From: Amphiscolops sp. MND2022
Taxonomy: Eukaryota
Reading direction: 5' to 3'
Length of the DNA: 64,000 nt
Assembly: GCA_964187785.1 (NCBI GenBank)
Contig: OZ076415.1
Span: 53,320,001 to 53,384,000 of the forward strand
Every line of letters starts with the position of its first letter. Position 1 is the first letter of the stretch. Position numbers and translations under genes: made by a program. The notes beneath the pieces are model-generated. The model was not told where the DNA came from. It made no database searches and was given only the letters and a program-made list of their open reading frames with translations. Shown piece by piece: positions 1-55,112 of the stretch.

Positions 1-263
1 GTTTCGAGATGGCTCATTCTTTTTTTAACTATATTCTTCCATTATGGTCTACCTTTCGCTGTGTCGTCGATGTTTTTCCAATCCCATCCGGCTTCTGATA
101 TGTGCTTTTTCCAATCGAAGATTGATTTCCTGGATTTCCCTCTTCGTTTGGGGTGTTGTTCAAGGTCTGTTAACTAACTGAAAACTGCGGCTTTAGTCGG
201 TCTGTTATTTTCCATCCGTAAAACATGTCCAATGCGTTGCAGCACTCTCTTCTCGATCTTCCA

Positions 264-1817: not shown

Positions 1818-2720
1818 GTCTCCTCGTTCTGCAGCTGCCGTGCACTCGTCAATGATCTGCTGCCATCAGTTTCGTTCTAGCTGATGTATCCGCCCTTCCA
1901 TTGCTCTTCTTGCTTTTCTCAGGTTGTTCCGGCAATGGTCAATCTCTTGTGAAAATGATGACGTCCGCGCCAGGGCTTCGTTTCGCTGCATGACCAGCCC
2001 GTTTATGGTGTCATGTATGTTCTTTAGTTCGTCTTCATGACCTACTGTCCAGGGGTTAGCTGCGTTACGTTTCTTCACTTCACAGGTTTCCTTGGCAGCT
2101 TGGTTCGGAACCTTTGCCAGCTCGTTCCAAGATGGCTCATTCGCCAGTTGGGCACCATACCCATGTCTCCTCGTTCTGCAGCTGCCGTGCACTCGTCAAT
2201 GATCTGCTGCCATCAGTTTCGTTCTAGCTGACGTATCCGCCATTTCATTGCTCTTCTTTGACCTACTGTCCAGAGGTTAGCTGCGTTACGTTTCTTCACT
2301 CCACAGGTTTCCTTGGCAGCTTGATTCAGAACCTTTGCCAGCTCGTTCCAAGATGGCTCATTCGCCAGTTGTACACCATACCCATGTCTCCTCGTTCTGC
2401 AGCTGCCGTGCAATCGTGAATGATCTGCTGCAATCAGTTTCGTTCTACCTGACGTATCCGCCATTTCATTGCTCTTCTTGTTTTTCTCAGGTTGTTCCGG
2501 CAATGGTCAATCTCTTGTGAAATTGATGACGTCCGAGCAAGGGCTTCGGTTCGCTGCATGACCAGCCCGTTTATGGTGTCATTATGTTCTTTAGTTCGTC
2601 TTCATGACCTACTGTCCAGGGGTTAGCTGCGTTACGTTTCTTCACTCCACAGGTTTCCTTGGCAGCTTGGTTCAGAACCTTTTCCAGCTCGTTCCAAGAT
2701 GGCTCATTCGCCAGTTGGGC
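1809..2720. repeat. Internal tandem triplication within LINE ORF2 (~345, ~220 and ~345 bp blocks)
   Basis: Block CATACCCATGTCTCCTCGTTCTGCAGC recurs at ~1809, ~2156 and ~2377. The block encoding QLANEPSWNEL.KV.NQAAKETC.VKKRNAAN recurs at ~2036, ~2260 and ~2602. Confidence 0.9.
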
Positions 2721-3560
2721 TCTCAGTTCATTGGTTCTGCTTTGAAACCTCTCCAAGGTCTGTCGGTCTTTCAACTTTTCATAGTTCGTGTTTGATTGTC
2801 GTTTCAGTTTTATTCTTCGTTTTGGCTTTTTGGTTCCGTTGAGGATGATAAATACCGGTTTGAGGTCGGATAGCACCATCTCTTGCGTCACTTTGATTTT
2901 CTTCACGTTCTTGTGTCTTTGGCTGCGTCTCATGATAAATCCGTCCAGCTCATACCATCTACTGTGGCTATGGTAGAACCAGGCTTCGCTCTTTTTTATT
3001 GGACAAAAGGTGTTTACAAGTTGAAGGTTTAGTGTCTCGCACCAATTTACCAGGTCTTCTCCTGCCTCCGTTGTGATCGTGGAGAGCCCGTACATTCCGC
3101 ACACTCCTGGCCGCTCATTGTTTCTGCCCACGTGAGAGTTGAAATCCATCAATTACCAGAGGCGATTCTTCGGGTGTTCTTGCGATTTCATTTTCAAGGT
3201 CACGCTGAAGTCCTTCAACTGACTCAACTGACTCATACCAGAACTCCAGAGTGGTTGGTAGACCGATATCAGTCGGGGGTTGTTTAATTTGGACTGCTAT
3301 GACTCTCTCGTTCAGACTTTTTTGTTGGTTGCCCTCAATCCAGGATTTCAATGCGTCTCCCTGTAGTATGACCCCACAGCGTTTGTATTACTGCCGCTCG
3401 GGTTTCGTCTTCTCAAAACATATAACCCCGTCGTCCGCTGCTCTGACTTCTGATGTCAGGACTATTTCCCAGTTCCTTTCTTTGGCGTGTGCTACCACCC
3501 GTTTCAATCTGTTTCGGTTTCTGTCTAGGGTAGATACGCCTTGAAGGTTTCAGGTTGTAA
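2571..3560 (-). pseudogene. Apurinic/apyrimidinic endonuclease domain of LINE
   Basis: NLQGV...LTSEVR (3560-3440), DFNSHVG (~3145) and ELDGFIMR (~2935) match the APE/EEP N, E, GDFN and 'IDhh' motifs. Confidence 0.85.
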
Positions 3561-3754
3561 ACATTGTGTTTCTAGACTTCTGTTCCGGTTTTAATTTCTT
3601 TCCGGGTGACTGCTTTCTGTTTGCTTTTCTGTTTCGTTTCTCGATTATCTTTTTCTTTCGTTTTGTCTTTCAGTTTTTCATTTCTTGCTTCTTTCTGCTG
3701 CTCGGTGGGTCTCCGTTTGTTTCCTCGTCGGACTTTCCTTCTTCGGGCTTCCTC

Positions 3755-3912
3755 ACACGTGCTGCACTCGAAGCGATATGACTGTGGTTTGTTTGCTAAC
3801 TTCTGGAGGTCTTTTTTGACAGGTTTGTACACCGCTGGTGTATTCATTGGCTGCATCACGTGCAGAGGATACTGTCGTGCCCCACACGTCTCTCACAGAC
3901 ACTGCATTGTTC
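3755..3912 (-). pseudogene. PHD-type zinc finger upstream of the endonuclease
   Basis: Manual translation gives CSVC-x9-CT*C-x4-HQRC ... FECSTC (C4HC3 pattern), with two in-frame stops and a 1-nt shift in an A-run. Confidence 0.7.
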
Positions 3913-3915
3913 CCC

Positions 3916-3957
3916 GGGACCGGGGTTCTGTTGCACGTCTCCATCCAGTAACAGCAA
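3916..3957 (-). other. 2A-like (StopGo) peptide LLLLDGDVQQNPGP
   Basis: TTG CTG TTA CTG GAT GGA GAC GTG CAA CAG AAC CCC GGT CCC read on the minus strand. It matches LLLxGD(V/I)ExNPG|P except E->Q. Confidence 0.8.
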
Positions 3958-4168
3958 ATATCGAGCCAGGTCGGCTGGGTCATCCGACTCGATTACCAAA
4001 ACCCAGGTGCCCGGGCCGAAGCCCTCGATATCGGACCAGAGAGGGTCCTGGCCAGTAAATTTGTTGGTGTTGCTCGGGGTGACTGGCCCATTTTGGCTCT
4101 GACGTTTCCCAGGATGTCACCCAGTTCGTTGTTGCCAACTTGCTGTGTTCCTTTTCTGGGTAACCTTG

Positions 4169-6043
4169 TGTCGCCGGTTTACCCGTGCGAGATGTCCGGA
4201 GTGCAACATCGATGAAACAGTCAACGCTGCTTACCCATCATGATGGCTGTCTACCCAAATATGGACAAGAACTTGATAAACATTTCAAACTTTAAACTTA
4301 AACAACCCTTGTTATTGTTCGTTTGATAAAATGATGCTTTTAGTTGTACATTTCATCTAAAATGACGATTGTTGAATGTTGTTAGTGTTGTTATTGTTTC
4401 ACCCTTAGGGTGCGTTGATCAATTGAAAAAAAACAACTGGAAAGGTAACGCCAAAGTTATCAAAACAGTGCTAAATCTTTGTTTTGAGGTCTTAAATCAT
4501 AAGAAGGAATTAATTTCAGCGGACCTATATATCTTTGCTACATTAAATCATTTGTAATTCAATCATGAGGAAAACAATCAAAACCAGTATGCTGATCCAT
4601 TTAAAAATCAGCATAACGATTTCGTACGCTTATTTGATACTGATTATGCGGCATTATGCAGTTTTCATAAAACAGCATATGCGGTGTTATTAAAGAAACA
4701 GCATAACGATTGTGTACGCAGTGTAGTTTATACTTTGTATTGCATTACGCGGAAATTCAGTAGAAACAGCATGATGTCTTGAGTTAAAAACAGCATATGC
4801 GGAAATTCAGTAGATACAGCATATGCGGAAATCTAGCAGAAACAGCATGATGACATGTGTTAAAAACAGCATATGCGGAAATCTAGCAGAAACAGTATGA
4901 TGGTTCAGATGGGATACAGCATATGCGGAAACCCCGTGGAAACAGTAGGACGTTTCAATGTAGGAACAGCTTATGCGGGATTTTGACAGAAACAGTATGG
5001 CGTTTTAACTTAAAAACAGTATAAAGATTCTTATTTCAGTTGATAAAATTATACTGAATTATGAGGTTTTCATGAGACAGCATATTATGCATTATGATGT
5101 AAAACAGCATAATTTGCAGGATTTCCATTGCTACGATGTTGTAAGTCACAGTGCTATATTTAGACCTTCCAGGAGTCTGACACAATATTACATTTTTAAC
5201 ATTTGACCCTAGAAACATGACGTTATGATGATTTGCATAAAATTGAAAGTCATGTAACTAAAAATAGTACCCAATAAGATCAGTTGAAAGAGGACCATGA
5301 AAAACCATTCTTCTAACGATCATTCGAAAAATAGCGCACATTCAGAGCAGTCACTCATTTTCACAAACAACTCACAACCCACAAACTTCGCAGTTTCCTT
5401 TCTCTGTAAAATACCTTCCACAGTTTCATTTCGCCAAAATATCTTTGTAATTCAAAGATTTTCGCACCTAACATTGTTTTCATCATGGGAAACAGAAGAA
5501 ATAGACGATCAAGGAGAGTAGAGTCCCAGTCATCAGACAGAGACGAAAATACTTCAGAAACAAGCTTCACTCAAGGTAATGCGAATTTAGTTGGTGTTTC
5601 TGAAAATGTTAATAATGTTCTTGACAGGAACTTAGGCAGCGAACTAACAGAACCTTCTCAGATAAGCATTGAGATAGAAGTTATTTCACAAAGGCTAGCA
5701 GAACAGAATAACGACAAGATGTCACAGATTGAAGAGCAACTAAATAACAAGTTCGAAGAGATACTTAAGGAGATTGGAACAAACAAAACCCACATTGTAA
5801 AAACTGATGAAGAGGATGTCGAGAACAATCAGCCCGGTCCTTCTAACTATAAAAATAAGGGTCTCAGGAACAAACACGCATCAAATTCAACATCAGATAA
5901 AAATAAAAATCAGGATGACCGGTTCTATCCGTCTGAAATGTGTGAGTTAAGACAACCGTACACTCCTCTTGGGATTGCTGAAGACACTTTAGACAAAACC
6001 ATCATCAGAAATGAAAACAGACAGGAAAGGGCCGATCATCACA
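4169..6043 (+). repeat. 5' LTR (visible part)
   Basis: Colinear with 19009-20882 with scattered substitutions. Homology stops exactly at CATCACA|TGGTGAC. Confidence 0.9.
4770..5000. repeat. Degenerate ~22-24 bp repeat (AAACAGCATATGCGGAAA) inside LTR; second copy ~19610-19860
   Basis: Recurrent ACAGCATATGCGG and ACAGTATGA motifs visible in both LTR copies. Confidence 0.7.
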
Positions 6044-7110
6044 TGGTGACAGGACCTACCAAGAACATCCTGAGACAAAGTTCGACTAACTCCAACACCA
6101 CAAATACACAAGGACCACACGCACAAACCCCTCTCGAGCATCCTGAACCAACAAATTCAGTCAGTCAAATTGCCATAGCAATCGAAAATCTCGCACGAAG
6201 AAATACCGAACCATCCCTTTTTCACCCGAAGAACACACTTACTTTCAACGGGAAATTAGAGAAAAATGAAAAATTCGAGTATTTTGAAGATCTTTTCCAT
6301 ACAACACTCAAAATGCAACCACACCTCACAGAAAACATGAAAATCAACCATTTTCATGCTCATCTAAGAGGACTGGCATTGAAAACTTTTAAAAACATCC
6401 AAAGAACTCCGACAACAACACTTGAAGATATACTAGTAGTCTTCAGAAGGAAATATGTCAAGCCTGAATCCAGCGCCTCTGCAAAACACAGATTTAACCA
6501 GCTCATGTTCCAACCAGAAAATCAAAAACTACCCGACTTTCTTGAAGACCTCCAAGAAAGCGCTGAGAGAGCCTTCGGCGAAGCAGCACCACAGATGATT
6601 GAGAGCCTGATATATGCAAAAATGCCCCCTCATCTCAAAAAATCAATCAACCAGGCTTTCCTCGAAAACGGTACCTATGAACAAATAGTGGAACATCTAG
6701 AAAGAAAGATGGAGCTCAATGGACTCGAAGCAGATGAGCCCCTAGCGAAAACTCAAATGACTGCAGTCAAACAACAAACCAACATACAAAACACTAGAAC
6801 ACCCCCACAAAACACACTTCAAGATAACCAATGCCGATATTGCAAAGATGAAGGGCACATAGCAAAAGAGTGCCCAAAACTTGCAAAACGACAGAAAATG
6901 GATCAAGACCCAGAAGCACCAAGATGTTCCCATTGTAACACCCCTGGTCATGAAGAACCAAATTGTTACTTCGGAGCAAACATGGAAAATCGTCCACCTA
7001 AATGGACACTCACTGAAACCCAGAAAAAACTAATTGAAGAATATAAAAAATCAAACAAACCAATCAACCCTCGAAATCTCAAACCTTCAACATCGAAAGA
7101 TTTAAACTGA
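5485..7110 (+). CDS. gag: Gag (541 aa) with two CCHC zinc knuckles; the first 186 codons lie within the LTR
   Basis: Open 541-aa ORF with a retrotransposon capsid-like core (TFNGK..EKFEYFEDLF...) and CRYCKDEGHIAKEC and CSHCNTPGHEEPNC. Confidence 0.9.
   Translation: MGNRRNRRSRRVESQSSDRDENTSETSFTQGNANLVGVSENVNNVLDRNLGSELTEPSQISIEIEVISQRLAEQNNDKMSQIEEQLNNKFEEILKEIGTNKTHIVKTDEEDVENNQPGPSNYKNKGLRNKHASNSTSDKNKNQDDRFYPSEMCELRQPYTPLGIAEDTLDKTIIRNENRQERADHHMVTGPTKNILRQSSTNSNTTNTQGPHAQTPLEHPEPTNSVSQIAIAIENLARRNTEPSLFHPKNTLTFNGKLEKNEKFEYFEDLFHTTLKMQPHLTENMKINHFHAHLRGLALKTFKNIQRTPTTTLEDILVVFRRKYVKPESSASAKHRFNQLMFQPENQKLPDFLEDLQESAERAFGEAAPQMIESLIYAKMPPHLKKSINQAFLENGTYEQIVEHLERKMELNGLEADEPLAKTQMTAVKQQTNIQNTRTPPQNTLQDNQCRYCKDEGHIAKECPKLAKRQKMDQDPEAPRCSHCNTPGHEEPNCYFGANMENRPPKWTLTETQKKLIEEYKKSNKPINPRNLKPSTSKDLN
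6044..6055 (+). promoter_or_regulatory. Primer-binding site (tRNA-Leu-like)
   Basis: TGGTGACAGGAC directly after the LTR-terminal CA. It resembles the complement of a tRNA-Leu 3' end (TGGTGTCAGGAG) at 10/12 nt, compared from memory. Confidence 0.65.
7101..7107 (+). promoter_or_regulatory. -1 ribosomal frameshift slippery site T_TTA_AAC
   Basis: The heptamer sits immediately before the gag stop (7108-7110) in the X_XXY_YYZ register, and the pol ORF at 7335 is in the -1 frame. Confidence 0.75.
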
Positions 7111-10100
7111 TAAAAACACGCCTTCAAACAACAACACCCCAAAAACAATGCTAAGTTGATGACTGGCAGCATCCGCCGAGCCCCAAACCTATAAAAATCA
7201 CAACCTACAATCACAACGCGACAAACAAAAGTGACTCTCCGACTGCAAACACTCAAAATACACCACCCGACCACCTTCAAGAGGATCTTTATGACTTATT
7301 CAAAGATGCCCCAGATAATTATCTACTACGATCCATGTTTGAACCTGAAACTGAAACCGAAACACAAAATCAGCAACCCACAATCTCGCGACCTCAGGAA
7401 ACACAAACTGACCAATTAAAAGTACAATCCACATCGACAACCCAAACTGACGATGACACTACATCGGAACTAACCAACACTCTCTTTAGTGCGTCTCCTG
7501 GAAAACAACCTCTCCTTGATGCCGACGTTTTTAATCACCTCACAACAGACGAAGGTAATAACCTTTCCACAAACCTTACCCTCAAAAAGAAGCGTAATAT
7601 GTACTATTTCCCAATGGATTTCGAGAAATTAACTCTGGATGGACTCATTGATACTGGCGCCCTTACAAGCGCCATTTCTGAAGAAGATCTCAACAAAATA
7701 AAACTCCTTTCAAACGAAGCCATAAAAGATACTGGTCCAGCACCCAATTTTCAAATCATGGTGGCAAATGGTCAACTTGAGCGACCCATCAGCACCGTTT
7801 TACTTCAATTCGAAGTAGCAGATTTCCAATTTCAAGAGAACTTCATTGTCATGAAGGTACTACCCAACCCATTATTCGGCCTGTGTTTTTTAGAAAGACA
7901 CAATGCCATGTTCGACATTCGTCAAAGGATTATTACTTTCCCTTACCTGTCGATGCAACTACGACCAAACCACACAACAAATACCCGAACAACAACACCC
8001 CTTCTAACAGAAACTTCATACACCCTACAACCTGGAGAAACCCTCGCGATCTCCAGCAAAATGCCACACCTGATAGATCACAATGCCACAGGTATTGTCA
8101 CTCCATCATCACATATGGAAGATCACGAAAGTATTTTCATTACATCTTCCCTATGTACGGTTAATAACAATGCAGTGGGCTACCAAGTGATCAATTTTTC
8201 GGATATGCCATACACTCTTCCTATAGATACACACATGGCAGACTTCCGAGTTCTTACGCCCGAACAGATTAAACACATCAAACCTGTTGATCCATCAACC
8301 CTCACATTCATGATCCACCAACACATCGAAAACACGGATCTATACCTCAACCAATTGATGAAAACAAATCAATCATCGGATGAACCAGAAACCTACTGGT
8401 TCCCTACACCTGAGGAACTTGGGGATCCAGATACAGACACTCCAATACAACAACGCATAAATGATGAACTACTAGAACTCAAACAGCTAGAGCAATTAAA
8501 CCCAAACGACAACGACGAGTCAAGAATGAAATTTCTCAGTCACTTCGACTGGAAGGACACTACCCTAAGCCCGTTCGAAAAACAACACATAGAAGACATT
8601 CTGGTACAATATCACGACATCTTTGCAAGACATTGTTTCGACATAGGTACCAATAGAGAATTCAAGGTCAAACTAACTCCGAATGATGACAGACCAGCCT
8701 ACAGTCAAAGTCTTCCTACACCCATCAACTTCAAGGACGACATAACTGTTGAACTGGCCCTTCTTCATCGTTATGGGATCATCGCGACCCTACCGTTCTC
8801 TAAATACGCAAGCCCTATTTTCGCCCAGAGGAAACCAAACGGACGCCTTCGACTTTTGGTGGATCTGCGCAAAATCAACAACCTCATCACTCAGGACTAC
8901 GTGAACAACAATCACCCAGTTAGCACATTGTCAGATGCAGCACAGCATATGACTGGCAAGAAACTTTTTTGCAAACTTGATTGCTCTCAAGCATATCACT
9001 GCTTGCAAATGGCGGACTACCAGTCCATACAGATGTTAGCCTTTAATTTCGTGAGTCGAACATTTGCATATCGCCGCCTTGCACAAGGACTCAGCCGATC
9101 ACTGTCTGCTTTCTCATAGTTCATGAGAGAATATTTGGATAAGGCAATCAAAGCTGATCAATGCGCTCAATATGTCGATGACATTGGCATCGCTGCGAAT
9201 GATTCTACCCAGCTTTGCATCAACATCAAAACAGTCTTTGAATGCATACGCAAAGCAGGACTCAAACTTACGATGGCCAAATGTCATTTTGGAGTCAAAC
9301 AAGTTGACTTCTTGGGTCGGACAATTACACCAGAAGGAGTCTCTCCACAAACTGAAAAAGTCAAACAATTCCTCCAAAAACTCAAATTTCCGAAATCCAA
9401 AAAAGCACTTCAGAGATATATTGGGTTTCTCAACTACTACAGAAACTACATCCCTCGCTTATCAGAAAAACTAACCCCCTTTTTCAAATTGCTCAAACAA
9501 ACATCACAATTCTCCATCCCGGATGCAATTCTCGAAGCATTCAAAAGTCGCAACCAGCAACTGGAACAATCATGCAAACTTGCTCTCAAACAACCGATCA
9601 AAAACAAACAACTCATTTTAATGACCGACGCTAGCTTTACAGCGGCAGGATATGCCATCACGAGTGAAGACGATCCTGACCAAAAGCTCCAATCTAGAAG
9701 GAAAAGCTATGCTCCAATAGCTTTTGGTTAGAAAACCTTTAATCCAACCCAAAAATGGCTATATACGCAAAAGAGTTCCTAGCAATCTATTTTGCGTTTT
9801 CTGAATTTGGACACTTGAGGTGGGGCAGCGTTTTTCCTGTTATCGTATTCACAGATAACAGATCTGTAACACGCTTTTTCCAAACCAAAATCATCCCCCG
9901 GCTCTTTGAAATGCATGCGATTACGTCCTCCAATACAATTTCGTCATTGCTTATGTTGCTGGGGCCATGAATACGGCTGCAGACTTCCTATCGCGAGCTG
10001 AATTGAACCCCACAGAAAAACTTGAGATGAACATCCTCAATGATGTCAATACAAAAGCAATTGAAGTTAACATACAGTCCACTGGGGTCGCCGAATAGGA

Positions 10101-12082
10101 ACTCCTATATATACTTCCCGGTGAATGCCCCACAGAACAACAATTGTGGGAAGAAAAAGAAGCAATTCGTCAATCAGCAAAAACTGAAACCCACAACGAA
10201 CCAGAAAACGAAGTGTTCGAACTACAAACTTTCCACAAACCCACAGCGGGAACCATCAACTATAGGGAGGGCCACTTCAAAGACAATGCAAAAATCCGCT
10301 AGGAACAAAACAATGATGAAGTCCTACGCAATTTGAGAGCCAAAATTGAAGGCGAACCCTACGACGAAACACAATTCACACAAGACTACCGATACAAACA
10401 TTATTTACAAAACATCACGAGGAGAGGATTGAAATCAGGCAATATGTCCTAACAAGAAGATACTACAATGTTACTGGGATGATATCCCATTATCAAATTC
10501 TTTTACTCAAACAACTCCTAGATGAATTCTTTCATGCCCTTCATGGTCATAACGCAAACCATCCGGGAATAACCAAAATGATCCAAGAAGCACGACAAAA
10601 TTACTACTACCCGTGTATCGCCAAATATATCCGAAATTGGGTAACAAAATGTCAAATATGCATCCAAAACAAACGGATCAACAATGACCTACTCAAAACG
10701 GAACTACTAAACTGCCCTGAATGGGATTTAGGCCCGGAAGACATCCTACAAATGGACATCCTTCCCAATCTCCCACCAAGCGGAGGATATGACAATATCA
10801 TCACTGCAATAGACGTTTTCTCACGCTATTTGTTTGCCTATCCAGTCACGAGAATCACTGCTCCAGCAGTGGCAGAAATCATTATGGCAATTTTGTGTGA
10901 ACACACATATCTACCCACATCAATCATTACCGAAATGGGCACCCAATTTAATTCTCAGGTTACAAAAGAAGTAGCCGCAGTCCTGAACATAGAACTGAAA
11001 CATGCAACGACAAAACTCGCCCAAACAATCGGACTGTTAGAACGTACTCATCCATCAGTCAAAGCACACCTTAAGGCAGCCACTGGAGAATTTAGAAACA
11101 ATTGGCACAAGTTTTTATCATTGGCGGTCTTAAACCATAATACAACCTACCATGCAACACTAGGATGTGAACCTACACGGGTCTTCCATGGAAGAATTCC
11201 ACACAATATATTAGATTTAAAACTTGGATACAACCCAAATCCTCGCTTCCAACCCCTAACTGAGGTAGCAGAGGAAGTACAAAGAAGGATTGCTTTACTT
11301 CATGATCAAACGAAGAAAAACATCATGCAATCTTACCTCAAATATAAAGCATATTACGACAGGAAAGCAAAGGCATCACCTCTAACGACAGAGGATTATT
11401 GCTTTATCCTGAATCCAAAGGCCGACACACAAGCCACGAAGATACCCTTTCGTGAATTTCGTTGGGTTGGTCCCTATAAAGTTGAAAAAGTCCTACCGAA
11501 CAATAATTATATTGTTCGCAGATTGGGCACAAATAAAACCCAACTACTCCACCGCATTCGACTACGAAAATACACTCCACAAGCTCCTGTTGCAGATAAT
11601 TTTGTCAGAGAAACTGACTGGCAGAAAGAGGATACACTTGTCTCTCAAGATGATTTATATGCCCATGCTTGGGACAGTAATTTTGGCAGCATTCCATTCG
11701 ATCCTGACCATGAAGTCTGTGATCAACAGGAAGACACAGCGGAACAGAACCTACTCCTGAACCAAAAATATACCACCCTCCCGCCCTCGATAATTCAAAA
11801 AATAGTGGGAGGATCGCAGCAGGACAACCTGCTGCGAACGACAAAGAACCTCAAATAACTGAAAAAACTTATTCAGAAAATGAAAATCATGAGCCCATTC
11901 CAGAAACGTCCCGAAATCCAGATAATATTCAAGCAAACCCTACCCCAAATTCCCCAAAAACCCCTGAAATTATCCCGGGAAATGACGGACAAGAAATTGA
12001 GGAAACTGTTAACACAAGAGGCGAGAAATATAACCTACGCCCAAACCCTAACCCAAACTACTTAGACTCATACAGATATTAA
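7111..12082 (+). pseudogene. pol: Pol polyprotein (protease, RT, RNase H, integrase with GPY/F), several stops and frameshifts
   Basis: LDGLIDTGA (PR); RLLVDLRKIN, KLDCSQAY and QYVDD (RT); LMTDASF and VFTDNR (RH); HGHNANHPG..C..C and DVFSRY (IN); WVGPYKV; terminal NLRPNPNPNY. Confidence 0.95.
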
Positions 12083-12301
12083 AAACAAACTAGAGACTCA
12101 AAGACTTCAACTATATACGACTGCTCTTTCAGCCTCTTAATTCTCAATTTTCTTTCCTTTCGTCAAACAAAACTATAGCCGAAAGGCTTCATAAAGATGA
12201 GCAAACTATTCCAGGTATAAATATCCTGGGAGGAGAACATATGATAAATACACAAACAACAAAATTGCACTAGATAACAAAGCAAAACTACAACAACAGT
12301 T

Positions 12302-12320
12302 GAAAAGGAATGTTAAAACA
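12302..12320 (+). promoter_or_regulatory. Candidate polypurine tract and 3' LTR start (GAAAAGGAA|TGTTAA at 12311)
   Basis: Purine run followed by TG shortly after the pol end. It cannot be confirmed because the matching 5' LTR start is outside the window. Confidence 0.35.
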
Positions 12321-12341
12321 ATTCGAGAGAGAGAGAGAGAT

Positions 12342-15300
12342 CTATTTGTCCCCAGATCTCTTTTTCTTGACAGCCAATTTTTTCGGTGAACTCGGCCTTA
12401 CATCAGGCAGAAATGACACATCAGTAACAACTCGAGACATAGAGACAACAGGTCTGGCAAGATTAGGGGATTTGTTGGAGTTCCTGTCTGCTGGCCCTGA
12501 TGGTCCTGGTCCTGTCTGGATAGGAGTAGGAGTTGCAAATTTAGGAGGGGTCCGGACAACGTTTGAGCCAGATGATTTAGGACTAGTCTGCAGAGATACC
12601 CATAATTTCTCCTCGTCTCTAACTGTACAAGTATAACGGGAATCCAATTGGTTAACAAGCCTTCGCCTCCGAGGAGGTCACATCCCAGACTGACCAATGT
12701 TCATCTTCAAATAAAACATGTTCTCTCCCAAGCAAGGAAAAGACCGAAGACACAGTCATGGGGTTTGTTAATAATTAAGAAGCATTTGGAATCCCCACAA
12801 GAGATGACTGAACACAGCGCACTGAGGAGTTAAAATCGTGGACATCTGAAGCAAGTTCTGGGACACTCAGAATGAAATTCGGTGGAGAAACAATAACACC
12901 AGATGAACTAAGGCAACATAATTTGAATATAGTAAACAAATTCTCTCGGCAATGAAGTTCATAATAGTTGGCAAGAAAAGTAACCCAATCACCTTCGTAG
13001 CTGACTTCATGAGATCTGAACCTTTCAACGAAAGAACGGTATTCACTAAGAATCATGGGCTTGGTTACAGATGAAATCCACTTTTGCCGAATGAAGTAGT
13101 CACAGAGAATTTCTGACTCATGAGTGTAGTCGACTTCCTCGCCATATCGCAGTACAGCTTCGTCAAAGACAGAAAATCCTCTCACAAGCTTGGATTTGCA
13201 TAGCTCATGTTTCAATAAAAGTTCACAAAAGCTCTTGTGGAAGCACAGGACTTGTTCTGCGAAGTGTGTGGGAATCGGTAAATTGCTTTCTGTTACCAAA
13301 CTAGCGAAATCTTTATTCTGCAAAATATCAGCCGTAGTCTTTAAAGGAAGATCAGGAGATGAAAGGTTGATAGACAGAAAACGGTCTCAATCGGAAACGT
13401 CACCGAGGAAAGAATCAGGGAGAATGGTCTCTAGTTGGCTATAGACGAACGTAGCAAAAGAACTATAGACACGGAAATTGCTAGGTGATGGGTGATGAAC
13501 CTCCGGTTACCCCTTTGGAGGCTGATTAATCTAAACATAAAGAATAATAAGCTTGGCACAAACACTGGAACAACCAACAAAAGGACTAACAAGGAAGGAG
13601 GACATTGCGAATCAGATATAATTTGGCAGAGTATGATTTGTCTTTATAGAATGTCTCGTCAAGACTCTTCGGCTGAAAAAAATATCAAGGAATAAGAGAA
13701 GAAAATAATAACCGACTAAACACAAGACCGAGATGAACCTCTTTAATGTGATACTTGAAAGCTTTGAGACGATCAGCCAATCGAAGGTGGGACATAACTT
13801 TATTCCAGTTTTTGCAAAGTTGTTCAAGGATAGCAACGGACTCTTCGTGCGTGTATTTAAGGCTGGAAATGGCCTAAAACAACAATGCTACAATGATATT
13901 ATGGCAAGAAGAAATCAGTATGCGGTTTTCAGAAGAAAACAGCATAAGAAGAAATCAGTAGGCGGTTTTCAGGAGAAAACAGCATGAGAAGAAATCAGTA
14001 TGCGGTTTTCAGAAGAAAACAGCAAAAGAAGAAATCAGTATGCGGTTTCCAGAAGAAAGCAGCATAAGAAGAAATCAATATGGGGTTTTCAGAAGAAAAC
14101 AGCATAAGAAGAAAACAGTATGCGGTTTTCAGAAGAAAACAGCATAAAAAGAAATCAGTATGCGGTTTTCAGGAGAAAACAGCATAAGAAGAAATCAGTA
14201 TGCGGTTTTCAGGAGAAAACAGCATAAGAAGGAATCAGTATGCGGTTTTCAGAAGAAAACAGCATAAGAAGAAATCAGCATGAGGCTTTCACGAGAAAAC
14301 AGCATGGAAAAACAAACTATATCATCTATACCGTTTTCTGGAGAATGCATTACAGGACTCAGAAGAAGACAGCATAAGAGGAAATCAGTATGCAATTCTC
14401 AAATAAAAACAGCAGAAGAAGAAATAATTATGTGATTTTAGAAGAAAACGGCATAAAAGAAAAGGTTTTGAGGCCAACGAAAAGAAACAATATGCCGTAT
14501 ATTGAAAGAAACAGCATGACAAAGTACAGGTTATGCTGTTTGGCTGTATGATGAAAATAGACAAAGTACAACAAAATTCTGACACTCTTTATGCTACCTC
14601 ATGCGGATTTCATAAAACAGCATAGAAACATAATATCCTATATTATGTAGTACCCCCTGTAACGGTACGTCAGATAAATCGAGTCGATACCACTTATTAC
14701 ACAAACCTCGTATGGAAATTTAGAAATGGGACATTAAAAGAATAATGAGAATACTTACTCTACGTAGTTCAGGAAGATCATTGAGCCATACAGATCCGGA
14801 AGCAGTTCGCAATTTCATCAGCAGAAATTGTAACACGCTGTGGTAATCGTAACGATCCAATATTTTAACTGTGGGACCTGCAAGGGCCTTGTCCAAATCC
14901 TCAAAAGAGAAAGTAGGAACGATGCACACAGCTGGGGCCTGAACCAATTCTGTGACAAGAGATTTTGAAGTACGACTATCGAAGCCCGAAAGAGAATGAA
15001 GTGGGGGTATTGCAGGGAATACTGCGAGGAAAGAACAAACAACTTGGAGGATCCACTTGGGGGTGAAGAGAACGTTAGGGACCTCAGCTAGAGGAAGTTG
15101 GTTGAGTACGTTCCCGGACCAAAAAATCAGGAACACTTGCACGTTGTCAAAAGTTGAATTGACTTTGAGAGAAAATTGGCCCGATTGCCCAATAGATGTA
15201 GTGGAATAGGACTACAAAGTTCGAAACATGTGGACAAGGATACCCTGAAATGTAAGGGAAACATCTGAATTGAGGTACACCAAAATATTGAATATCAAAA

Positions 15301-16669
15301 GAATAATACATACGAAAATGCGCCTGTTTCTCCAATCATACTGTGGAACCTTAGTTGGCCCATGAACCTCCAAGCTAAGATTTGCCCAAAGTAAAGACAA
15401 AATATCCGCCTTTCCTCCGTTTTGAAGACCAATGAGCAGAATCCGGACTTGGGAACAAATTACTGCACAAGGTTCCAGATTGTCCGTGGTAACTGGAAGT
15501 TTTCTTTGCCCAGGCAATAGATAACACTCCCCGAGGACAGGTGTGATAGGGATAACAAGCTCAGCTCTTTCACGTGCCTTGTCTAGCTCTTGCCCAGTAA
15601 GCTCTACTTCATCGCGACCATTGAGCGGTAACCCAGGTATCTCCTTTCGGATACGGTGTCCCCGGATTAAGTGTGTACCTGTTCTGTAATGGGACAGTAT
15701 CTCGAGCGACCCTTTGGTCTTAAGAGACAGCTCAATCTGGCAGACTCTACAACGCCACTTGTGTGGGTTGTTTTCAGCATCAATAGGGGCAGTAACGAAA
15801 AACTTGAAAATCGGATGTTTTCTATACACACTTCCTGGTAATTGTAATCGCGGTCTGGGCCTTTTCGACGCAGAAGGATGCTCTCCTTGAGGATCCTGAA
15901 GTTGGCTGCCCTCTCTAATCTGAGTTCATCTTCGACCTCGACGGGCTTTGCGGGAAGTGAGTGAAGGAATTTCTTCAATAGTACTCACAGGAGAAGCAAC
16001 CAGTGACGAGTCAATATGTGTTCCGCTAGTCTCAGTTTGTAACACAGTTGTATTTGTTCCCATAGGAGAAATAGCGAATTGCTCCAATAATCTAGAACTG
16101 ATGGCGGTTGAGACTTCAGACACCAATACCTGCATACGTTGTTCCAGCGCTTGCAAGTCGGAACTAGTAGCAAAAGTAGGGGTAACTGACGGCTGTGAAG
16201 TGGTTGCCATCACAGGTTCTGTGGTAACATGGGCCGCACTCACTTCAGTATTAGGCAAATTAGTCCTGTTCAGGAAACTAGAAAAGGGCGAGTGGCATAT
16301 TTTCTCGGAAGAGGACCCAGTGACGTTGATATCTCCTGACGTATTGTTTGCATCAGAATTCCTGGCTTGAACAGGACTTGTCCTGAGCAGATTCTCAGGC
16401 ACGTTCTTGTTTGGGGAAGTGGGCGCGCTAGGTTGTGCGAGAAAACTAATCGCAGTCTCAGTCACGGGATTGGTATACTCCTCAGGGTCCATGCTTTTAT
16501 CTATGGAGTGCCTTATCCCGTCAGCATCAACAGACGAACCTGGCACTTCCTGGTAACTAAGCTGGTGATCGGGAGTCGAATGGTGAGGTGGATCACCGAA
16601 TGGGAGCAGTAACGCCAGGTTATCGGCGGCGATTGGAGTCCGAGCAAGTGAATCAGAACTATGGGCGAC
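12342..16669 (-). pseudogene. Antisense multi-exon gene inside the Gypsy element: low-complexity N-terminus, BED/C2H2-like zinc finger, helical C-terminal domain
   Basis: GT-AG introns 15313-15245 (69 nt), 14758-13874 (885 nt) and 13738-13673 (66 nt) each preserve frame. Intron 13590-13531 (60 nt) needs a 1-nt correction, and there is an upstream acceptor at 16669. Motif WRCRVC-x16-HYRTGTH. A few premature stops and frameshifts. Confidence 0.75.
13907..14305. repeat. Tandem array, 10 x 40 bp (AGAAGAAATCAGTATGCGGTTTTCAGAAGAAAACAGCATA)
   Basis: TGCGGTTTT or a close variant recurs at exactly 40-bp spacing from 13921 to 14281. Confidence 0.95.
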
Positions 16670-18110
16670 TGAAACACAAGAGAAATCAAGAAATTCAGAA
16701 GATAAGAAATAGTCAAAGACGACAGTCGACTGTTTAAAATAGTGGGAGCCTATTCAACTCTCAATTTAAACAAACAAAACTAGTTCAAAAAATTATTCAC
16801 GACTTGAAACAGGAAATCCGGAATTAAACCTGCGGATAGTTGGTGAAAACTGAAATTTGCTCAACAATCGGAACAGGATACTCAAAAGAGCCTATAATGA
16901 TTGTTTGAAACCAAATCTTTGAACCTACGCACCGTTTTAATTAAATTGGGCCAAAGAAATTCGGAAAATACAAACCTTGTGTTGGCAGCTCGTTAGTCTG
17001 TTCTCCAGTCTCGTTGCATTCCATGAAAGGAAAACGTCCACAACGAAAACTGATATGAAATCCAAAGTATAAAATTGGTGACAGAGAGTAATCAAAATGA
17101 AAATTGAGTTGATGAGATAGTAACTATGACGAGTAGAAGTAAATGGAGAATACTGGTGAGAAAAGTCTGGAAGAAAAAATCAAAATGGATATCTAAATGA
17201 AGATAATGGAAGAAAGAGACAATTAACAATAGGCTGTTTGGGAATTTCTATATGACTAATACTGTTTGACGGAGATAACTAATCAAAACTTTGAGACAAA
17301 GAAGCAATAGAGCGTAAGTATTACAGCAAGGAAGAAGGCGTGGCTATCAACACAAAGGCAACAAAGCAAATGAATGACGTCAGTTTCACAATGTACGCAA
17401 ACCAGCTTAAATCTGATTGGCCGAGAGAGTGCATGTGGCTCGGAAGTATCTGCCAGTGTGACCAAGTTAATAATGCATTCGCTGCTAACTTGACTATGCG
17501 GAAAAGAACGATGAACAGCATAGTGCAGTAATAGAGTTAATGGGTAGAATCATGATGCATTATGATGAATTCAGTGTGCGGCCTATGATGCAAATGACTA
17601 CTTGTTTTCATATCATCTGTAATATGCTGGAAATACGAATCATGTTATTACGTCAGAAGAAGTGAATAATGCTTGAAGGTGTGAAAACTTTCACTTTGAG
17701 AAACCTGAATGAACCTATGATATATTTAATTATGAGCAATTAAAATTATTCAGACGGAATAAGAAGACAATAACCGAAACATAAAAGAAATTGAAAAGAA
17801 AATTTCAGGATCTGATGATTGTTTATATGACATTAACAATTTTACCGGTGCTATTCTCCCATTTTTCACGATAAATTGTCTGAAAACCCGGGGAATGGGT
17901 GATTCGAGATATGTTTTGATGCTATTTGTAAGAAAACCCCCGTAACCCAATAAAAAAACTATAAAATCTTATCATTCTGATCATAAATCTCCAAAAATTA
18001 GTCGCTTGTTTTTCTCTCTCTTTTTGACAAATTCCTTGAGAATTTAATAATCATATTGTGTTAAATCTTCTTGAAACTTGACTGGAATCAAATAAGCCCA
18101 TAGTCAAACA

Positions 18111-19055
18111 ATGGAGAGTACACCACGAAACTCGATCCTTAACAGAACTGATTCAATAAACCCTGCATTGGATCTGATCAACATCTCAAATAGTTCGGGG
18201 GAAGAATTTATAGTGGAGCCCCTCTCAGTGAACGATCTCGATGAAAGATTTAGAACTGTCCCATACACTCTGACAGACATGTCTACAGCTTTTATGGGAG
18301 CAGCAGGAGCAGTATGATTCCCTAATAGTGTTGATTCACAAGCGGGATATGGTCAACAAATTGATACTAGGGACTCCCGTATCGAAAATGAACTAATGGA
18401 TCTCATGGATGACGTATCTAATATATCCTCCCTGACCTTTATCGGATCATCAGAAGAGGAAGATAATCCGTTCCTTGGCGCCAATTTCGCTAATGTGGAT
18501 CAGGCTGAAAGAAACAGCTATGGTCGACCAGTCCAAAGAGTACAACCTATGGTCAGAACCCCACGAGTAACAAGAGCAACAGTGAATCCCCCGCTCGTAC
18601 CAAGTAGCAGAAGCGCTTTCTCAGTGGTTATACCCGAACAATGAAGAGCACCAGAAATACAAACACACCGACCTATGCAAGCTAATTACTTGCCAATGCC
18701 CGTTCCATTTTACCCCAATAATTGGAACAAAATTACACATCCGCAACAAAAGTTTCACGGTCAAACTCAATTTCAACCTCAGGGGCCACCTAACGGGCCC
18801 ATATTGCAGATGAACCCTCCAGTAATGCCTGAAGTGGACGGGTTTTGTGCTGGCTGTTCCAAAACTTATGACCAAATTGCTGTCGAGACGCTCACCCACT
18901 ATGTTGCGTCCGAATATCCTGAAGAAACAATTCGCGATCGCAATGTGAGATCAAGAGCATTTGTTGATGGGTTTGGAGCAGCGCTGATCTGCTTCAAAAA
19001 TGCTGAACTGTCGCCGGCTTACCCGTGCGAGATGTCCGGAGTGCAACATCGATGA
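18111..19055 (+). pseudogene. Extra sense ORF (~314 codons, two premature TGA) upstream of gag; function unknown
   Basis: ORFs 18111-18317, 18396-18644 and 18675-19055 share one frame, separated only by single TGAs at 18315 and 18642. P/Q-rich, with a CAGC motif near the C-terminus. Confidence 0.7.
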
Positions 19056-20882
19056 AACAGTCAACGCTGCTTACCCATCATGATGGCTGTCCTCCCGAAT
19101 ATGGACAAGAACTTGATAAACATTTCAAACTTTAAACTTAAACATTGCTTGTTATTGTTCGTTTGATAAAATGTTGCTTTTAGTTGTACATTTCATCTAA
19201 AATGATGATTGTTGAATGTTGTTATTGTTGTTATTGTTTCACCCTTAGGGTGCGTTGATCAATTAAAAAAACGACTGGAAAGGTAACGCCAAAGTTATTA
19301 AAACAGTGCTAAATCTTTGTTTTGTCGTCTTAAATCATAAGAAGGAATTAATTTCAGCGGACCTATATATCTTTGCTACATTAAATCATTTGTAATTCAA
19401 TCATGAGGAAAACAATCAAAAACAGTATGATGATCCATTTAAAAAGCAGCATAACGATTTCGTACGCTTATTTGATACTGATTATGCGGCATTATGCAGT
19501 TTTCTTAAAACAGCATATGCGGTTTCATTAAAGAAACATCATAATGATTGTGTACGCAGTATAGTTTATACTTTGTATTGCATTACGCGGAAATTCAGTA
19601 GAAACAGCATGATGTCTTGAGTTAAAAACAGCATATGCGGAAATTCAGTAGAAACAGCATATGCGGAAATCTAGCAGAAACAGCATGATGACTTGTGTTA
19701 AAAACAGCATATGCGGAAATCTAACAGAAACAGTATGATGGTTCAGATGGGATACAGCATATGCGGAAACCCCGTGGAAACAGTATGACGTTTCAATGTA
19801 GGAACAGCATATGCGAAAATTTGACAGAAACAGTATGACGTTTTATCTTAAAAACAGTATAAAGATTCTTATTTCAGTTGATAAAATTATACTGAATAAT
19901 GAGGTTTTCATGAGACAGCATATACTGCATTATGATGTAAAACAGCATAATTGGCAGGATTTCCAGTGCTACGATGTTGTAAGTCACAGTGCTATATTTA
20001 GACCTTCCAGGAGTCTCACGCAATATTATATTTTTAAACTTTGACCCTAGAAACATGACTTTATGATGATTTGCATAAAATTGAAAGTCATGTAACTAAA
20101 AATAGTACCCAATAAGATCAGTTGAAAGAAGACCATCAAAAAACCACTCTTCTAACGATCATTCGAAAAATAGCGCACATTCAGAGCAGTCACTCATTTT
20201 CACAAACAACTCACTACCCACAAACTTCGCAGTTTCCTTTCTCTGTAAAATAACTTCCACAGTTTCATTTCGCCAAAATATCTTTGTAATTCAAAGATTT
20301 TCGCACCTAACATTGTTTTCATCATGGGAAACAAGAGAAATAGACGATCAAGGAGAGTAGAGTCCCAATCATCAGACAGAGACGAAAATACTTCAGAAAC
20401 AAGCTTCCCTCAAGGTAATGCGACTTTAGTTGGTGTTTCTAAAAATGTTAATAATGTTCTTGACAGGAACTTACTCAGCGAACTAACAGAACCTTCTCAG
20501 ATAAGCAATGAGATAGAAGTTATTTCACAAAGGCTAGCAGAACAAAATAACGACAAGATGTCACAGATTGAAGAGCAACTAAATAACAAATTCAAAGAGA
20601 TACTTAAGGAGATTAGAACAAACAAAACCCACATTGTAATAACTGATGAAGAGGATGCCGAGAACAATCAGTCCGGTCCTTCTAACTATAAAAATAAGGG
20701 TCTCAGGAACGAACACGCATCAAATTCAACATCAGATAAAAATAAGAATCAGGATGACCGGTTCTATCCGTCTGAAATGTGTGAGTTAAGACAACCGTAC
20801 ACTCCTCTTGGGATTGCTGAAGACACTTTAGACGAAACCATCATCATAAATGAAAACAGACAGGAAAGGGCCGATCATCACA
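19009..20882 (+). repeat. 3' LTR, minimum extent (true start lies further left)
   Basis: Direct repeat of 4169-6043. It ends CATCACA and is followed by unrelated flank (CCTTGC...). Confidence 0.9.
20324..20882 (+). pseudogene. LTR-borne copy of the gag N-terminal 186 codons
   Basis: MGNKRNRRSRRVESQ...ERADHH is near-identical to the start of the 5485 ORF, and identity ends at the LTR boundary. Confidence 0.9.
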
Positions 20883-22487
20883 CCTTGCTTGTTCTTGACG
20901 CACAAACTTTCGTCGTGCGCTCCCGCCTGTGGCCACTCGGAGGCGACAAGCACTCCACAAGCTTTTCGTGATATATTCAATTAGGAAACGCTCTTCGTCT
21001 TCATCCTGAATTGTCCCTCTTGGAAATTTTCTGTTGTGAAAGTACACGAAAAACATTGTTGTGCCACTGCGCGTCTTGTTTTCATTTAGTTTATTCATGC
21101 ACAAAAATCCAAAAATATTGTTCCCCTTGAGCTCTTGTAATTCCTTATGAGAAACAAGGTTATCTCTGTTGCGTTTTGTTTGAAAATTTAACGAAATTTT
21201 TACTCAGTGTCCGCACTTGACGAGGTAATGAACAAAACAAAATGTTTAAAAAAAACAACTATTGAAAGCCAGTTTTAAATTTTAAAATGGTGTCCGAAGT
21301 TTTGCTTTGTATTGGCCTGAATTTTAAAACAATGCTGTTGCCAAAATTATAGAGTGCAAAATTACATCGGTGCTCATAGAACGTCGTTTTGAAAGTACCC
21401 AAGTTGAATTCGCTGGAGAAAATTTCTAGCTGTTTTCTTGCACACAATTTTTTTCACTAAACATGAAAGTTTCTGGCAGCCTGCTTGGAAAACCACTGCA
21501 GTTTAGCGTTCACTGTTTCAATCAAAACTGAAAATACTTCAACCTTTTCACCTTATCAATCTTTAGTTTTTCAAGTATTCAACTTATGAAATTACCTTAG
21601 TCCAATTTCAGGCTAAACGTGACGTTCTTCAATTAAATGAGGCTTCAATGCAATGGTTCCATGGATGGAAACGAACCGAAAAGATTATGTTTTGTCTGAA
21701 GTCATATGATCTCAATGCAACCTTTACATAACAGTTATGATAACCTAGTCAAAATCGACACTAATTGCCATAAAGGATGATTTTTTCGTTTTTGTCGGTT
21801 CTTTTTCGAAAGCAAAGTACCAGTATGATCAAATTAGGTTCGTGAGCCTCGAATCGAAGTCTTGAAACTTTATATAAAACGACTGGGTAATTTGCTGTTC
21901 AGTGACCATCGAAGCTGTTTTGCAACTGTCTACTCGCTTAAACAAAGAATATGTCTTTAGGCCATTCTACTAAGATCACACTTCTTGAGAATTTTTTTCT
22001 TCTGGAGTTTGCGTTTTTTGGTTTATTCACAATTCAAGAAGTGAGGCTCGGTATCTATCCAGTCGTCTTTTTTGAGTCAGAATTAAATAGACAAAATTGA
22101 AGGGACTGAAGCAAGACTTTTGCCTATTGAACTTTTTCTTTCTGAACAAACAAAGTTTAACTTATGTAAACATTGGGGCCTTGTTGGATGCAAGCCGCTT
22201 CGTTTTCGATAGTTGTCTAGAAAGTTTAGTTTATTTGCATTTATACTTATATTTGAAATAAATTGTATGAATTATGTCAGGATTCCATGCATGGAATCAT
22301 GTTGTTCCATACGATTCCACACATGGAAACGAAAAGAAATTTATCGTATGAAACCATTCATGGAATCGCATGTGACGTTGGATCCGGGTTATAGTAAGAC
22401 GGAAAATGATTTTCATTGATTAGGCGGTAGAGATAATGAGGTCTCAGTGGCAAGTAAAAGGAGAATTGGTGTATATAAAATCTTGCC

Positions 22488-27024: not shown

Positions 27025-27265
27025 CGAACATACTGAACAGGTAAATTACTATACTTTACAGTAAAAAACAGTGATATATTATGTAAGTCAAGTTGCACAG
27101 CCAAATTTTACAAACTCTGAGCTCAAATATTATCATGCACTCTCTTGAAAATTGAACTAAAAATCTCAAAATGTCTTCTTCTGTGGCATATGACGGAAAA
27201 CTCGAACTTTGGACAAACTTTTGATTTGTAAGTGACTGTTTTGTTCTATATTAAAAGTGTGCCAT

Positions 27266-55099: not shown

Positions 55100-55112
55100 C
55101 TTGGCAAAATGT

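What the first reader, a model, noticed from the sequence alone, without database searches (positions are those of the whole stretch)
4169..20882. Multi-kilobase LTR that contains the first 186 codons of gag and ends inside the ORF
Seen: the direct repeat stops at CATCACA. In the left copy it continues as the PBS TGGTGAC, with an ATG spanning the junction (CAC ATG GTG). The gag frame runs from 5485 through the LTR end and the PBS, and both LTR copies keep these 186 codons open. Spacing between the copies is 14.84 kb, internal gag-pol occupies only ~6.3 kb, and a candidate PPT lies at 12302-12310. Inference: the LTR could be up to ~8.6 kb (element ~23 kb) and would then duplicate two accessory genes. 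Established precedent: Ty1 GAG starts in the LTR, but with far fewer codons.
Basis: partly seen in the sequence, partly recalled or inferred. Interest (0 to 1): 0.75.

Follow-up and report, generated by a model that had tools for sequence, protein, structure and literature searches.

The report
Giant retrotransposon with gene-filled ends
A 16.7-kb retrovirus-like jumping gene starts its capsid gene 186 codons inside its own end repeat, ends a second gene inside the other end repeat, and carries on the opposite strand an intron-containing gene that looks like a disarmed DNA-transposon enzyme, a layout shared by many related copies.

Summary
Observation confirmed; the 8.6-kb LTR inference is not supported. 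The element is a 16,714-bp Ty3/gypsy retrotransposon with 1.87-kb LTRs; the 'PPT' at 12302 is at chance level. Gag does start 186 codons inside the LTR, family-wide: 113 of 120 listed relatives have HMVTG at the LTR/PBS junction, and 67 of 120 short relatives break off exactly there into unrelated tails, 65 of 67 with an A-initial codon as an LTR ending CAC-A predicts. The 6.9 kb behind pol holds two conserved accessory genes: ORF3 (no known family), ending inside the 3' LTR, and an antisense gene with conserved introns whose product resembles a hAT transposase (BED-like finger, RNase H fold, hAT dimerisation region) lacking conserved catalytic acids. A short motif repeated in its intron recurs in the LTRs. 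This copy is decayed. Expression, start sites and functions are untested. New variant of a known kind.

The parts
4164..4168 (+). left target-site duplication CCTTG
4169..6043 (+). 5' LTR, 1,875 bp, TG...CA
4645..5110 (+). degenerate 26/50-bp repeat array in the LTR, motifs AAACAGYAT and TATGCGG (candidate enhancer or protein-binding array; function inferred)
5300..5484 (+). ATG-free stretch before the gag start (40 ATGs lie upstream in the LTR, the last at 5297): candidate 5' leader; transcription start not mapped
5485..7110 (+). gag, 541 aa; codons 1-186 inside the LTR (Gly2, polybasic stretch, likely coiled coil, otherwise polar); capsid-like region; two CCHC knuckles
6044..6053 (+). PBS-like TGGTGACAGG inside the gag frame (H-M-V-T-G); primer tRNA not identified
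7101..7107 (+). T TTA AAC just before the gag stop, in the phase of a -1 frameshift site (inferred); gag ends in DLN in at least 91 of 119 relatives
   Evidence: no stable downstream structure
7101..12082 (+). pol, order PR-RT-RNase H-IN; broken by stops (e.g. 7152, 9117, 9729) and frameshifts
12342..13530 (-). antisense gene, last exon region (5' border uncertain; stops and a frameshift); resembles the hAT dimerisation region
13591..13672 (-). antisense gene, candidate short exon (splice signals only, no homologue test)
13906..14460 (+). 40-bp tandem array inside the large intron, sharing AAACAGYAT and TATGCGG with the LTR array
14759..15244 (-). antisense gene, exon B: RNase H-like fold, one stop
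15245..15313 (-). 69-nt GT-AG intron; donor position conserved in relatives
15314..16753 (-). antisense gene, exon A: low-complexity N-terminal part, then BED-like zinc finger (about 15650-15800); one stop; start codon not fixed
18111..19055 (+). ORF3, 314 codons, two stops; last 15 codons and stop lie inside the 3' LTR; conserved CxxC-containing C-terminal domain, no transmembrane segment, no known family
19009..20882 (+). 3' LTR, 1,874 bp, TG...CA; preceded by AAAAATGCTGAAC, not a canonical PPT
20324..20971 (+). 3' LTR copy of the gag head, running 29 codons on into flanking DNA
20883..20887 (+). right target-site duplication CCTTG

Best explanation
A full-length, decayed Ty3/gypsy LTR retrotransposon, 4169-20882, with 1.87-kb LTRs whose two ends lie inside coding sequence. 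Shown: boundaries, target-site duplication, gene order, family-wide position of the LTR end inside gag, conservation of two accessory genes and of two introns. Inferred working: transcription starts in the 5' LTR a little upstream of 5485; Gag is made from the ATG at 5485, so R-U5 is at least 560 nt and mostly coding, the att end and PBS are written as H-M-V-T-G, and the minus-strand strong-stop DNA is correspondingly long; Pol follows by a -1 frameshift (80%). The LTR-encoded head is a matrix-like targeting module (Gly2 plus a basic patch for membrane or nuclear targeting; 50%). ORF3 is a Nef/Bel-like accessory gene crossing the PPT into U3. The antisense gene is a hAT transposase taken up by the element, transcribed from an internal promoter; its introns survive because they are antisense to the genomic RNA; it has lost cutting activity and most likely acts as a DNA-binding regulator on the repeated motif in the LTRs and its own intron (hAT origin 80%, integral to the element 85%, binding to the motif 35%). 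Every 3' or solo LTR carries a promoter, an ATG and 186 gag codons open towards host DNA.
For: TG...CA ends and CCTTG on both sides. Pfam order gag, PR, RT, RNase H, IN. HMVTG at the junction in 113 of 120 listed gag relatives. 86 of 119 relatives are under 55% identical in the head (median 38%, capsid region 82%) yet keep 174-196 open codons from an MG(N) start to the junction; neutral chance about 0.001 each at that distance. Of 120 listed short relatives, 87 reach the LTR end, 20 continue with a PBS-type peptide and 67 diverge into 64 different tails; 65 of 67 begin with an A-initial-codon residue against 81 of 184 at the next three positions. Gly2 in 99 of 100. ATG 5485 has A at -3 and G at +4 and follows 187 nt without ATG. 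ORF3: 56 relatives; 30 of 56 carry the peptide that crosses the LTR start, 21 of those 30 ending 12-13 residues later. Antisense gene: 267 relatives; relatives' ORFs continue with Val (GT donor) at the two predicted donors in 23 of 29 and 23 of 27 rows; zf-BED in 3 of 48 relatives scanned, one above cutoff; exon B model pLDDT 89.9, RNase H-like, Hermes transposase aligned over model residues 1-159; last exon close to Dimer_Tnp_hAT clusters, score 0.94. Motif AAACAGYAT on the plus strand: 10 and 12 in the LTRs, 11 in the extra region, 0 in gag-pol, 0 outside (2 on the minus strand outside). Contig lengths of antisense relatives recur among those of close gag relatives, 11 of 130, against 1 of 96 for distant ones, including two 27-kb contigs.
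Against: No DNA of any other copy and no RNA was obtained, so the 5' boundary of the LTR rests on this one copy, and start sites, splicing and translation are unobserved. No canonical PPT precedes the 3' LTR. The primer tRNA is unidentified. The gag search took only proteins of 297-947 aa and ranks by score, which favours copies with the head; relatives fall into few subfamilies and are not independent. 33 of 120 short relatives do not reach the junction; 26 of 56 ORF3 relatives lack the junction peptide (not examined one by one). The canonical MGxxxS/T motif is met in only 36 of 100 and not in this copy. The Hermes match is rank 13, Z 6.2, rmsd 7.5, within the range of common folds; best Z 7.1 is an unrelated protein; no piece of this copy's antisense gene hits Pfam or PDB by sequence. 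Contig length is only a proxy for contig identity. No structure follows the slippery site (z -0.2).
Confidence: 0.85

Rival explanations
1. One reading: the true LTR is 8.6 kb (12311-20882), primed at the purine run 12302-12310; the 5' LTR is cut down by the LINE; the accessory genes are in U3.
For: No canonical PPT before 19009; 12302-12317 is a purine run followed by TGTTAAA, matching the LTR-start pattern TGTTRNR given in PMC3601003 (passages), the only such match in the window.
Against: Both copies begin at the same TG and CCTTG flanks both ends; a 5-bp match at a preset place has about 1 chance in 1,000. The purine run is at chance level. Nothing in 1-4168 matches 12311-19008.
Confidence: 0.04
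2. The element is a normal-sized gypsy element into which a hAT DNA transposon inserted later; the antisense gene is a passenger.
For: The antisense gene looks hAT-derived; nested insertions are common, and this window is full of them. No DNA of other copies was seen.
Against: No terminal inverted repeats among the 25 longest of 70 inverted pairs listed; the intron array shares its motif with the LTR array; relatives of the gene share contig lengths with the closest gag relatives; no conserved acid at the end of the first RNase H strand in 36 aligned sequences.
Confidence: 0.1
3. Gag really starts at the junction ATG (Met187); the upstream 186 codons are an untranslated or optional extension kept open for other reasons.
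For: Met187 is almost invariant (118 of 120); the capsid region lies wholly downstream; the head evolves fast (38% against 82%); no expression data.
Against: Met187 is forced by CA|TGG; its context is weaker (C at -3) than that of ATG 5485; the first 11 residues of the head are nearly invariant and the frame and length are kept at 38% identity.
Confidence: 0.08
4. The repeat is a tandem or segmental duplication of two neighbouring elements, not an LTR pair.
For: The repeat holds coding sequence, which is unusual for LTRs.
Against: TG...CA, 5-bp duplication, PBS only behind the left copy; 67 relatives break at the same base into unrelated sequence.
Confidence: 0.01

Closest known systems
Ty1 of Saccharomyces cerevisiae (Ty1/copia)
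   Same: PBS lies inside the GAG frame (PMC4974528, passages), so GAG starts before the LTR ends.
   Different: Ty1 is a 5.9-kb copia-type element; its PBS is at nt 94-104 of the RNA, so few GAG codons precede it (about a dozen, recalled). Here 186 codons, 30% of a 1.87-kb LTR, in a gypsy-type element; Ty3's PBS is outside GAG.
[quoted passage not shown]
   Same: Long region behind pol (2.9-6.6 kb in Retand) with antisense ORFs, tandem arrays and a proposed DNA-binding, regulatory product; the Retand domain is called Transposase 28 (PMC11963269, passages; PMC7264820, parts 1-2 of 3).
   Different: The host here appears to be an animal (inferred from neighbouring genes); the region is 6.9 kb; the antisense gene has conserved introns ('intron' occurs 0 times in the Retand paper) and hAT-like parts, whereas the review states that such ORFs show no similarity to other transposons and their origin is unknown. 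Gag inside the LTR is not mentioned in the parts read.
hAT transposases (Hermes) and domesticated ZBED-type genes
   Same: Order BED-like finger, RNase H-like domain, helical insertion, dimerisation-like C-terminal region.
   Different: No conserved acid at the first catalytic position; no terminal inverted repeats; it sits inside a retrotransposon instead of its own transposon or a host locus.
Complex retroviruses: nef, foamy bel, MMTV sag; HTLV-1 hbz (recalled; hbz promoter also in PMC7264820)
   Same: An accessory gene running into U3; a spliced antisense regulatory gene in the 3' half.
   Different: No sequence or fold likeness found; no env-like gene (no hydrophobic segment in ORF3); in retroviruses gag starts behind the PBS (recalled).

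Membership tests
Ty3/gypsy LTR retrotransposons (Metaviridae) | two LTRs, TG...CA, 4-6-bp target-site duplication | tested here: met
Ty3/gypsy LTR retrotransposons (Metaviridae) | pol order PR-RT-RNase H-IN, with gypsy-type domains | tested here: met
   gag-asp_proteas, RVT_1, RT_RNaseH_2, Integrase_H2C2, rve in this order; several below cutoff because the gene is broken
Ty3/gypsy LTR retrotransposons (Metaviridae) | gag with capsid and CCHC knuckle | tested here: met
   zf-CCHC above cutoff, Ty3_capsid E 0.005
Ty3/gypsy LTR retrotransposons (Metaviridae) | PBS complementary to a host tRNA | tested here: inconclusive
   TGG-initial sequence directly behind the 5' LTR, conserved in the family; no host tRNA set available
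Ty3/gypsy LTR retrotransposons (Metaviridae) | polypurine tract before the 3' LTR | tested here: inconclusive
   AAAAATGCTGAAC, 9 purines of 13, not a pure tract; the site is conserved at protein level
Ty3/gypsy LTR retrotransposons (Metaviridae) | RT tree places it in a named clade (Mag, CsRn1, errantivirus ...) | not testable with these tools
   no reference set of named elements; the PDB search with an RT piece gave only two foamy-type protease/RT entries, E 1e-5
Retand/Tat lineage of plants | long pol-3'LTR region with antisense ORF and tandem arrays | tested here: met
Retand/Tat lineage of plants | Transposase 28 (PF04195) domain | tested here: not met
   no such Pfam hit in this copy or in 48 of the 150 listed relatives that were scanned
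hAT transposase (antisense gene) | N-terminal BED zinc finger | tested here: inconclusive
   CxxC...H...H conserved; zf-BED in 3 of 48 relatives, one above cutoff, another zinc-finger model in 3 of 48; none in this copy
hAT transposase (antisense gene) | RNase H-like domain followed by a helical insertion | tested here: met
   model pLDDT 89.9; integrase cores by Foldseek; Hermes aligned over 146 residues, Z 6.2
hAT transposase (antisense gene) | C-terminal hAT dimerisation domain | tested here: inconclusive
   23 of 30 Atlas hits in clusters with Dimer_Tnp_hAT, best 0.94; no Pfam hit
hAT transposase (antisense gene) | conserved DDE triad | tested here: not met
   no conserved acid at the end of the first strand, Asp in 16 of 35 after the fourth strand; positions assigned from the fold, not from a residue-level alignment to Hermes
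hAT DNA transposon (region 12083-19008) | terminal inverted repeats with 8-bp target-site duplication | tested here: not met
   none among the 25 longest of 70 inverted pairs shown; decay could have erased them
env-carrying elements (errantiviruses) | third ORF with signal peptide and transmembrane segment | tested here: not met
   highest 19-residue hydropathy 0.84-1.13 in ORF3 and 6 of its 56 relatives

The most novel reading that the evidence does not exclude
An animal lineage of 'complex' gypsy elements in which a retrotransposon has domesticated a DNA transposase as its own transcription or integration regulator: the spliced antisense BED protein binds the motif arrays in the LTR, while the LTR itself is a coding cassette (tail of ORF3, promoter, matrix-like first third of Gag), so that each of many solo and 3' LTRs makes a membrane- or nucleus-targeted Gag-head fusion peptide that can trap host exons or restrict the element.
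Probability: 0.3. Interest if true: 0.82.

Novelty: new variant of a known kind. Interest (0 to 1): 0.62.

Why it matters
It stretches what an LTR can be: about a third of it is gag, and both cis-acting junctions are written in protein code, across subfamilies only 38% alike in that part. LTR-based annotation that looks for gag behind the PBS would cut a third off this Gag. It also gives a concrete origin for an antisense accessory gene of an LTR retrotransposon, which a 2020 review calls unknown for plants: capture of a class II transposase with introns kept by the antisense orientation. And it predicts a testable class of host-fusion peptides made by solo LTRs.

Tried and rejected
No whole genome is held. 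No related loci in viral or metagenome contigs. No tRNA genes or Rfam matches. ORF3: no Pfam family, low-confidence model (pLDDT 48.5), no fold match, no usable Atlas hit. Profiles of exons A and B found nothing relevant in the PDB by sequence. I considered a nested solo LTR at 12311-13591 (TGTTA...TAACA between two AGGAA); dropped because the antisense frame and a candidate splice donor run through its right end; not excluded by other copies. I considered that the junction ATG is a general gag start; the second gypsy element of the window has an ATG there too but out of frame with its gag, so it gives no support. Openness of both LTR copies was rejected as evidence. Literature searches found no description of this layout: 0 papers; 2, one checked by passages and unrelated; 1, listing only; 1, listing only; 21, listing only; 0; 6, listing only; it used a host-group guess, acoels, that is recalled and untested. 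The library lacks most subscription journals, Repbase and Dfam were not available, and no supplements were read, so a consensus entry may exist there.
Full report
Observation. Self-comparison of the window gives one long direct repeat, 4169-6043 against 19009-20882, 96.2% identical; a global alignment gives 1,875 and 1,874 bp with 69 mismatches and 3 gap columns. Both copies start TGTCGCC and end CATCACA. The left copy continues TGGTGACAGG, the right one does not. A frame from ATG 5485 runs through the end of the repeat to 7110 (541 aa), with 186 codons inside the repeat and CAC ATG GTG at the junction.

Boundaries. The five bases before 4169 and the five after 20882 are both CCTTG. With TG...CA ends this defines one insertion of 16,714 bp with 1.87-kb LTRs. 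The purine run at 12302-12310 offered as PPT is at chance level: 28 matches of nine purines plus TG against 28.7 expected, and 1 against 0.70 for the stricter pattern. Against my reading, the sequence before the real 3' LTR (AAAAATGCTGAAC) is not a canonical PPT, and the 5' boundary is known from this copy only, since no genome, reads or related loci could be had. The LINE on the left faces the element with its 5' end; I infer the element inserted at or in that end.

Class. Pfam finds a zinc knuckle and a weak Ty3 capsid match in the first ORF, then protease, RT, RNase H and integrase in gypsy order. pol is broken by stops and frameshifts. T TTA AAC stands just before the gag stop, pol is in the -1 frame, and at least 91 of 119 relatives end in DLN, so a -1 frameshift is likely; no stimulatory structure was found.

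Gag inside the LTR. That both copies are open proves little: differences are neutral (16 non-synonymous, 4 synonymous; pN = pS = 0.036) and 36-39% of neutral pairs would stay open. The family gives the real test. The gag search returned 2,530 clusters, 120 listed, all unnamed; 113 of 120 read HMVTG at the junction. 96 of 119 relatives have both the start motif and the junction; 86 of them are under 55% identical in the head (median 38%, against 82% in the capsid region) and keep 174-196 open codons, which neutral drift would allow about once in 1,000 (substitutions only). The length filter and ranking favour such proteins and the subfamilies are few, so this is strong but not independent counting. 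A search with the 186 LTR-encoded residues returned 267 shorter proteins, 120 listed. 87 of 120 align to the LTR end; 20 go on with a PBS-type peptide and 67 change at exactly that point to 64 different tails. An LTR ending CAC-A predicts that the next codon starts with A: 65 of 67 do, against 81 of 184 at the next three positions (a first regex pass gave 59 of 61). These are 3' or solo LTRs read into host flanks, so the LTR end inside gag is family-wide. The head begins Met-Gly-Asn and a basic stretch (Gly2 in 99 of 100 relatives with the start motif, out of 119; Ser/Thr6 in 36 of 100). The MGxxxS/T myristoylation motif is as given in bioRxiv 10.1101/2025.03.14.642691 (passages); this copy does not meet it, so a matrix-like role is an even bet and a nuclear signal is the alternative. 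ATG 5485 has a strong context and follows 187 nt without ATG after 40 ATGs further up, which points to a transcription start shortly before it (inference).

ORF3. A sense frame from 18111 ends at 19055, inside the 3' LTR, with two stops in this copy. It has 56 related clusters down to 31% identity. In 30 aligned relatives (30 of 56) the C-terminal CxxC domain is the best kept part; 30 of 56 carry the peptide across the LTR start and 21 of these end 12-13 residues later. So the other LTR junction is also coding. No family, fold or membrane segment was found.

Antisense gene. One minus-strand frame runs 16753-14759 with two stops and an in-frame 69-nt GT-AG intron; a second donor at 14758 opens an intron holding the 40-bp array; further coding sequence lies at about 13530-12342. 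The search gave 267 relatives, 150 listed. In two alignments of 35 relatives each, chosen by coverage, the relatives' genomic ORFs go on with Val, the signature of a GT donor, at the predicted exon ends in 23 of 29 and 23 of 27 informative rows. zf-BED hits 3 of 48 relatives scanned, one above cutoff. Exon B folds confidently (pLDDT 89.9) as an RNase H-like domain plus helices; Foldseek ranks integrase cores first; in the wide search Hermes transposase is the row with the longest alignment, 146 residues over model 1-159, but only Z 6.2, rank 13. The last exon falls near hAT dimerisation clusters (23 of 30 hits, 0.94). Each line is modest; their order along the gene matches a hAT transposase. 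No acid is conserved at the first catalytic strand, so I read it as disarmed. It appears to belong to the element: no terminal inverted repeats; the motif AAACAGYAT occurs 10, 11 and 12 times on the plus strand in the 5' LTR, the extra region and the 3' LTR and not on that strand in the other 47 kb; and contig lengths of its relatives (10 clusters looked up, 27 lengths) recur among close gag relatives 11 of 130 against 1 of 96 for distant ones, P = 0.015, a proxy only. Binding of the BED finger to the motif is my inference, by analogy with subterminal repeats of hAT elements (recalled).

Comparison. Ty1 has its PBS inside GAG, at nt 94-104 of the RNA (PMC4974528, passages). Plant Retand elements have 2.9-6.6 kb behind pol with antisense ORFs and tandem arrays (PMC11963269, passages); a review says the origin of such ORFs is unknown and that they lack likeness to other transposons (PMC7264820, parts 1-2 of 3). 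Nine successful literature searches showed no description of this combination; coverage is limited and repeat libraries were not searched. Earlier notes of this scan report an antisense intron-rich gene and an LTR-borne gene in other genomes; I did not test them and they are not support.

Verdict. A real, decayed member of a large gypsy family with an unusual, conserved architecture. The 8.6-kb LTR is dropped; the coding LTR is confirmed and extended, and a transposase-like spliced antisense gene is added. New variant of a known kind; interest 0.62.

Noticed in passing
proteins P0233, P0239, P0273, P0282, P0286, P0288, P0289, P0302: 8 of 120 short relatives carry one to three copies of a 12-residue unit at the junction that begins like the PBS peptide and ends like the LTR end, i.e. 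an in-frame 36-nt tandem repeat of att end plus PBS.
   Followed up: partly
window 50322-56267, minus strand: Second, conventional gypsy element: LTRs of about 222-226 bp, canonical PPT, PBS, gag start behind the PBS, 5-bp duplication with one mismatch.
   Followed up: partly
window 1-4163, minus strand: Decayed LINE with a 221-bp tandem repeat (1801-2720) and, near 3915-3965, a 2A-like peptide followed by a Cys/His finger (labels recalled).
   Followed up: no
window about 27000-44000, minus strand: Many broken ORFs, one matching protein-primed DNA polymerase B (37058-37780, E 2e-9): probably a decayed Polinton-like element.
   Followed up: no
window 16753-18111: The antisense gene and ORF3 stand head to head 1.35 kb apart (candidate bidirectional internal promoter); a pyrimidine tract and AG at about 18005-18040 could instead be a splice acceptor for ORF3.
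   Followed up: no
window 12228-12340: Three purine runs, including (GA)8, lie near the midpoint of the element (12525); a central priming site is conceivable but the run at 12302 is not above chance.
   Followed up: partly
window 22939-23626 and 44511-45895: Tandem arrays of 176 bp and 155 bp.
   Followed up: no
window 59414-60337, minus strand: ORF with PAN and C-type lectin domains, probably a host gene.
   Followed up: no
protein P0167: A relative with gag and pol in one 1,284-aa frame.
   Followed up: no
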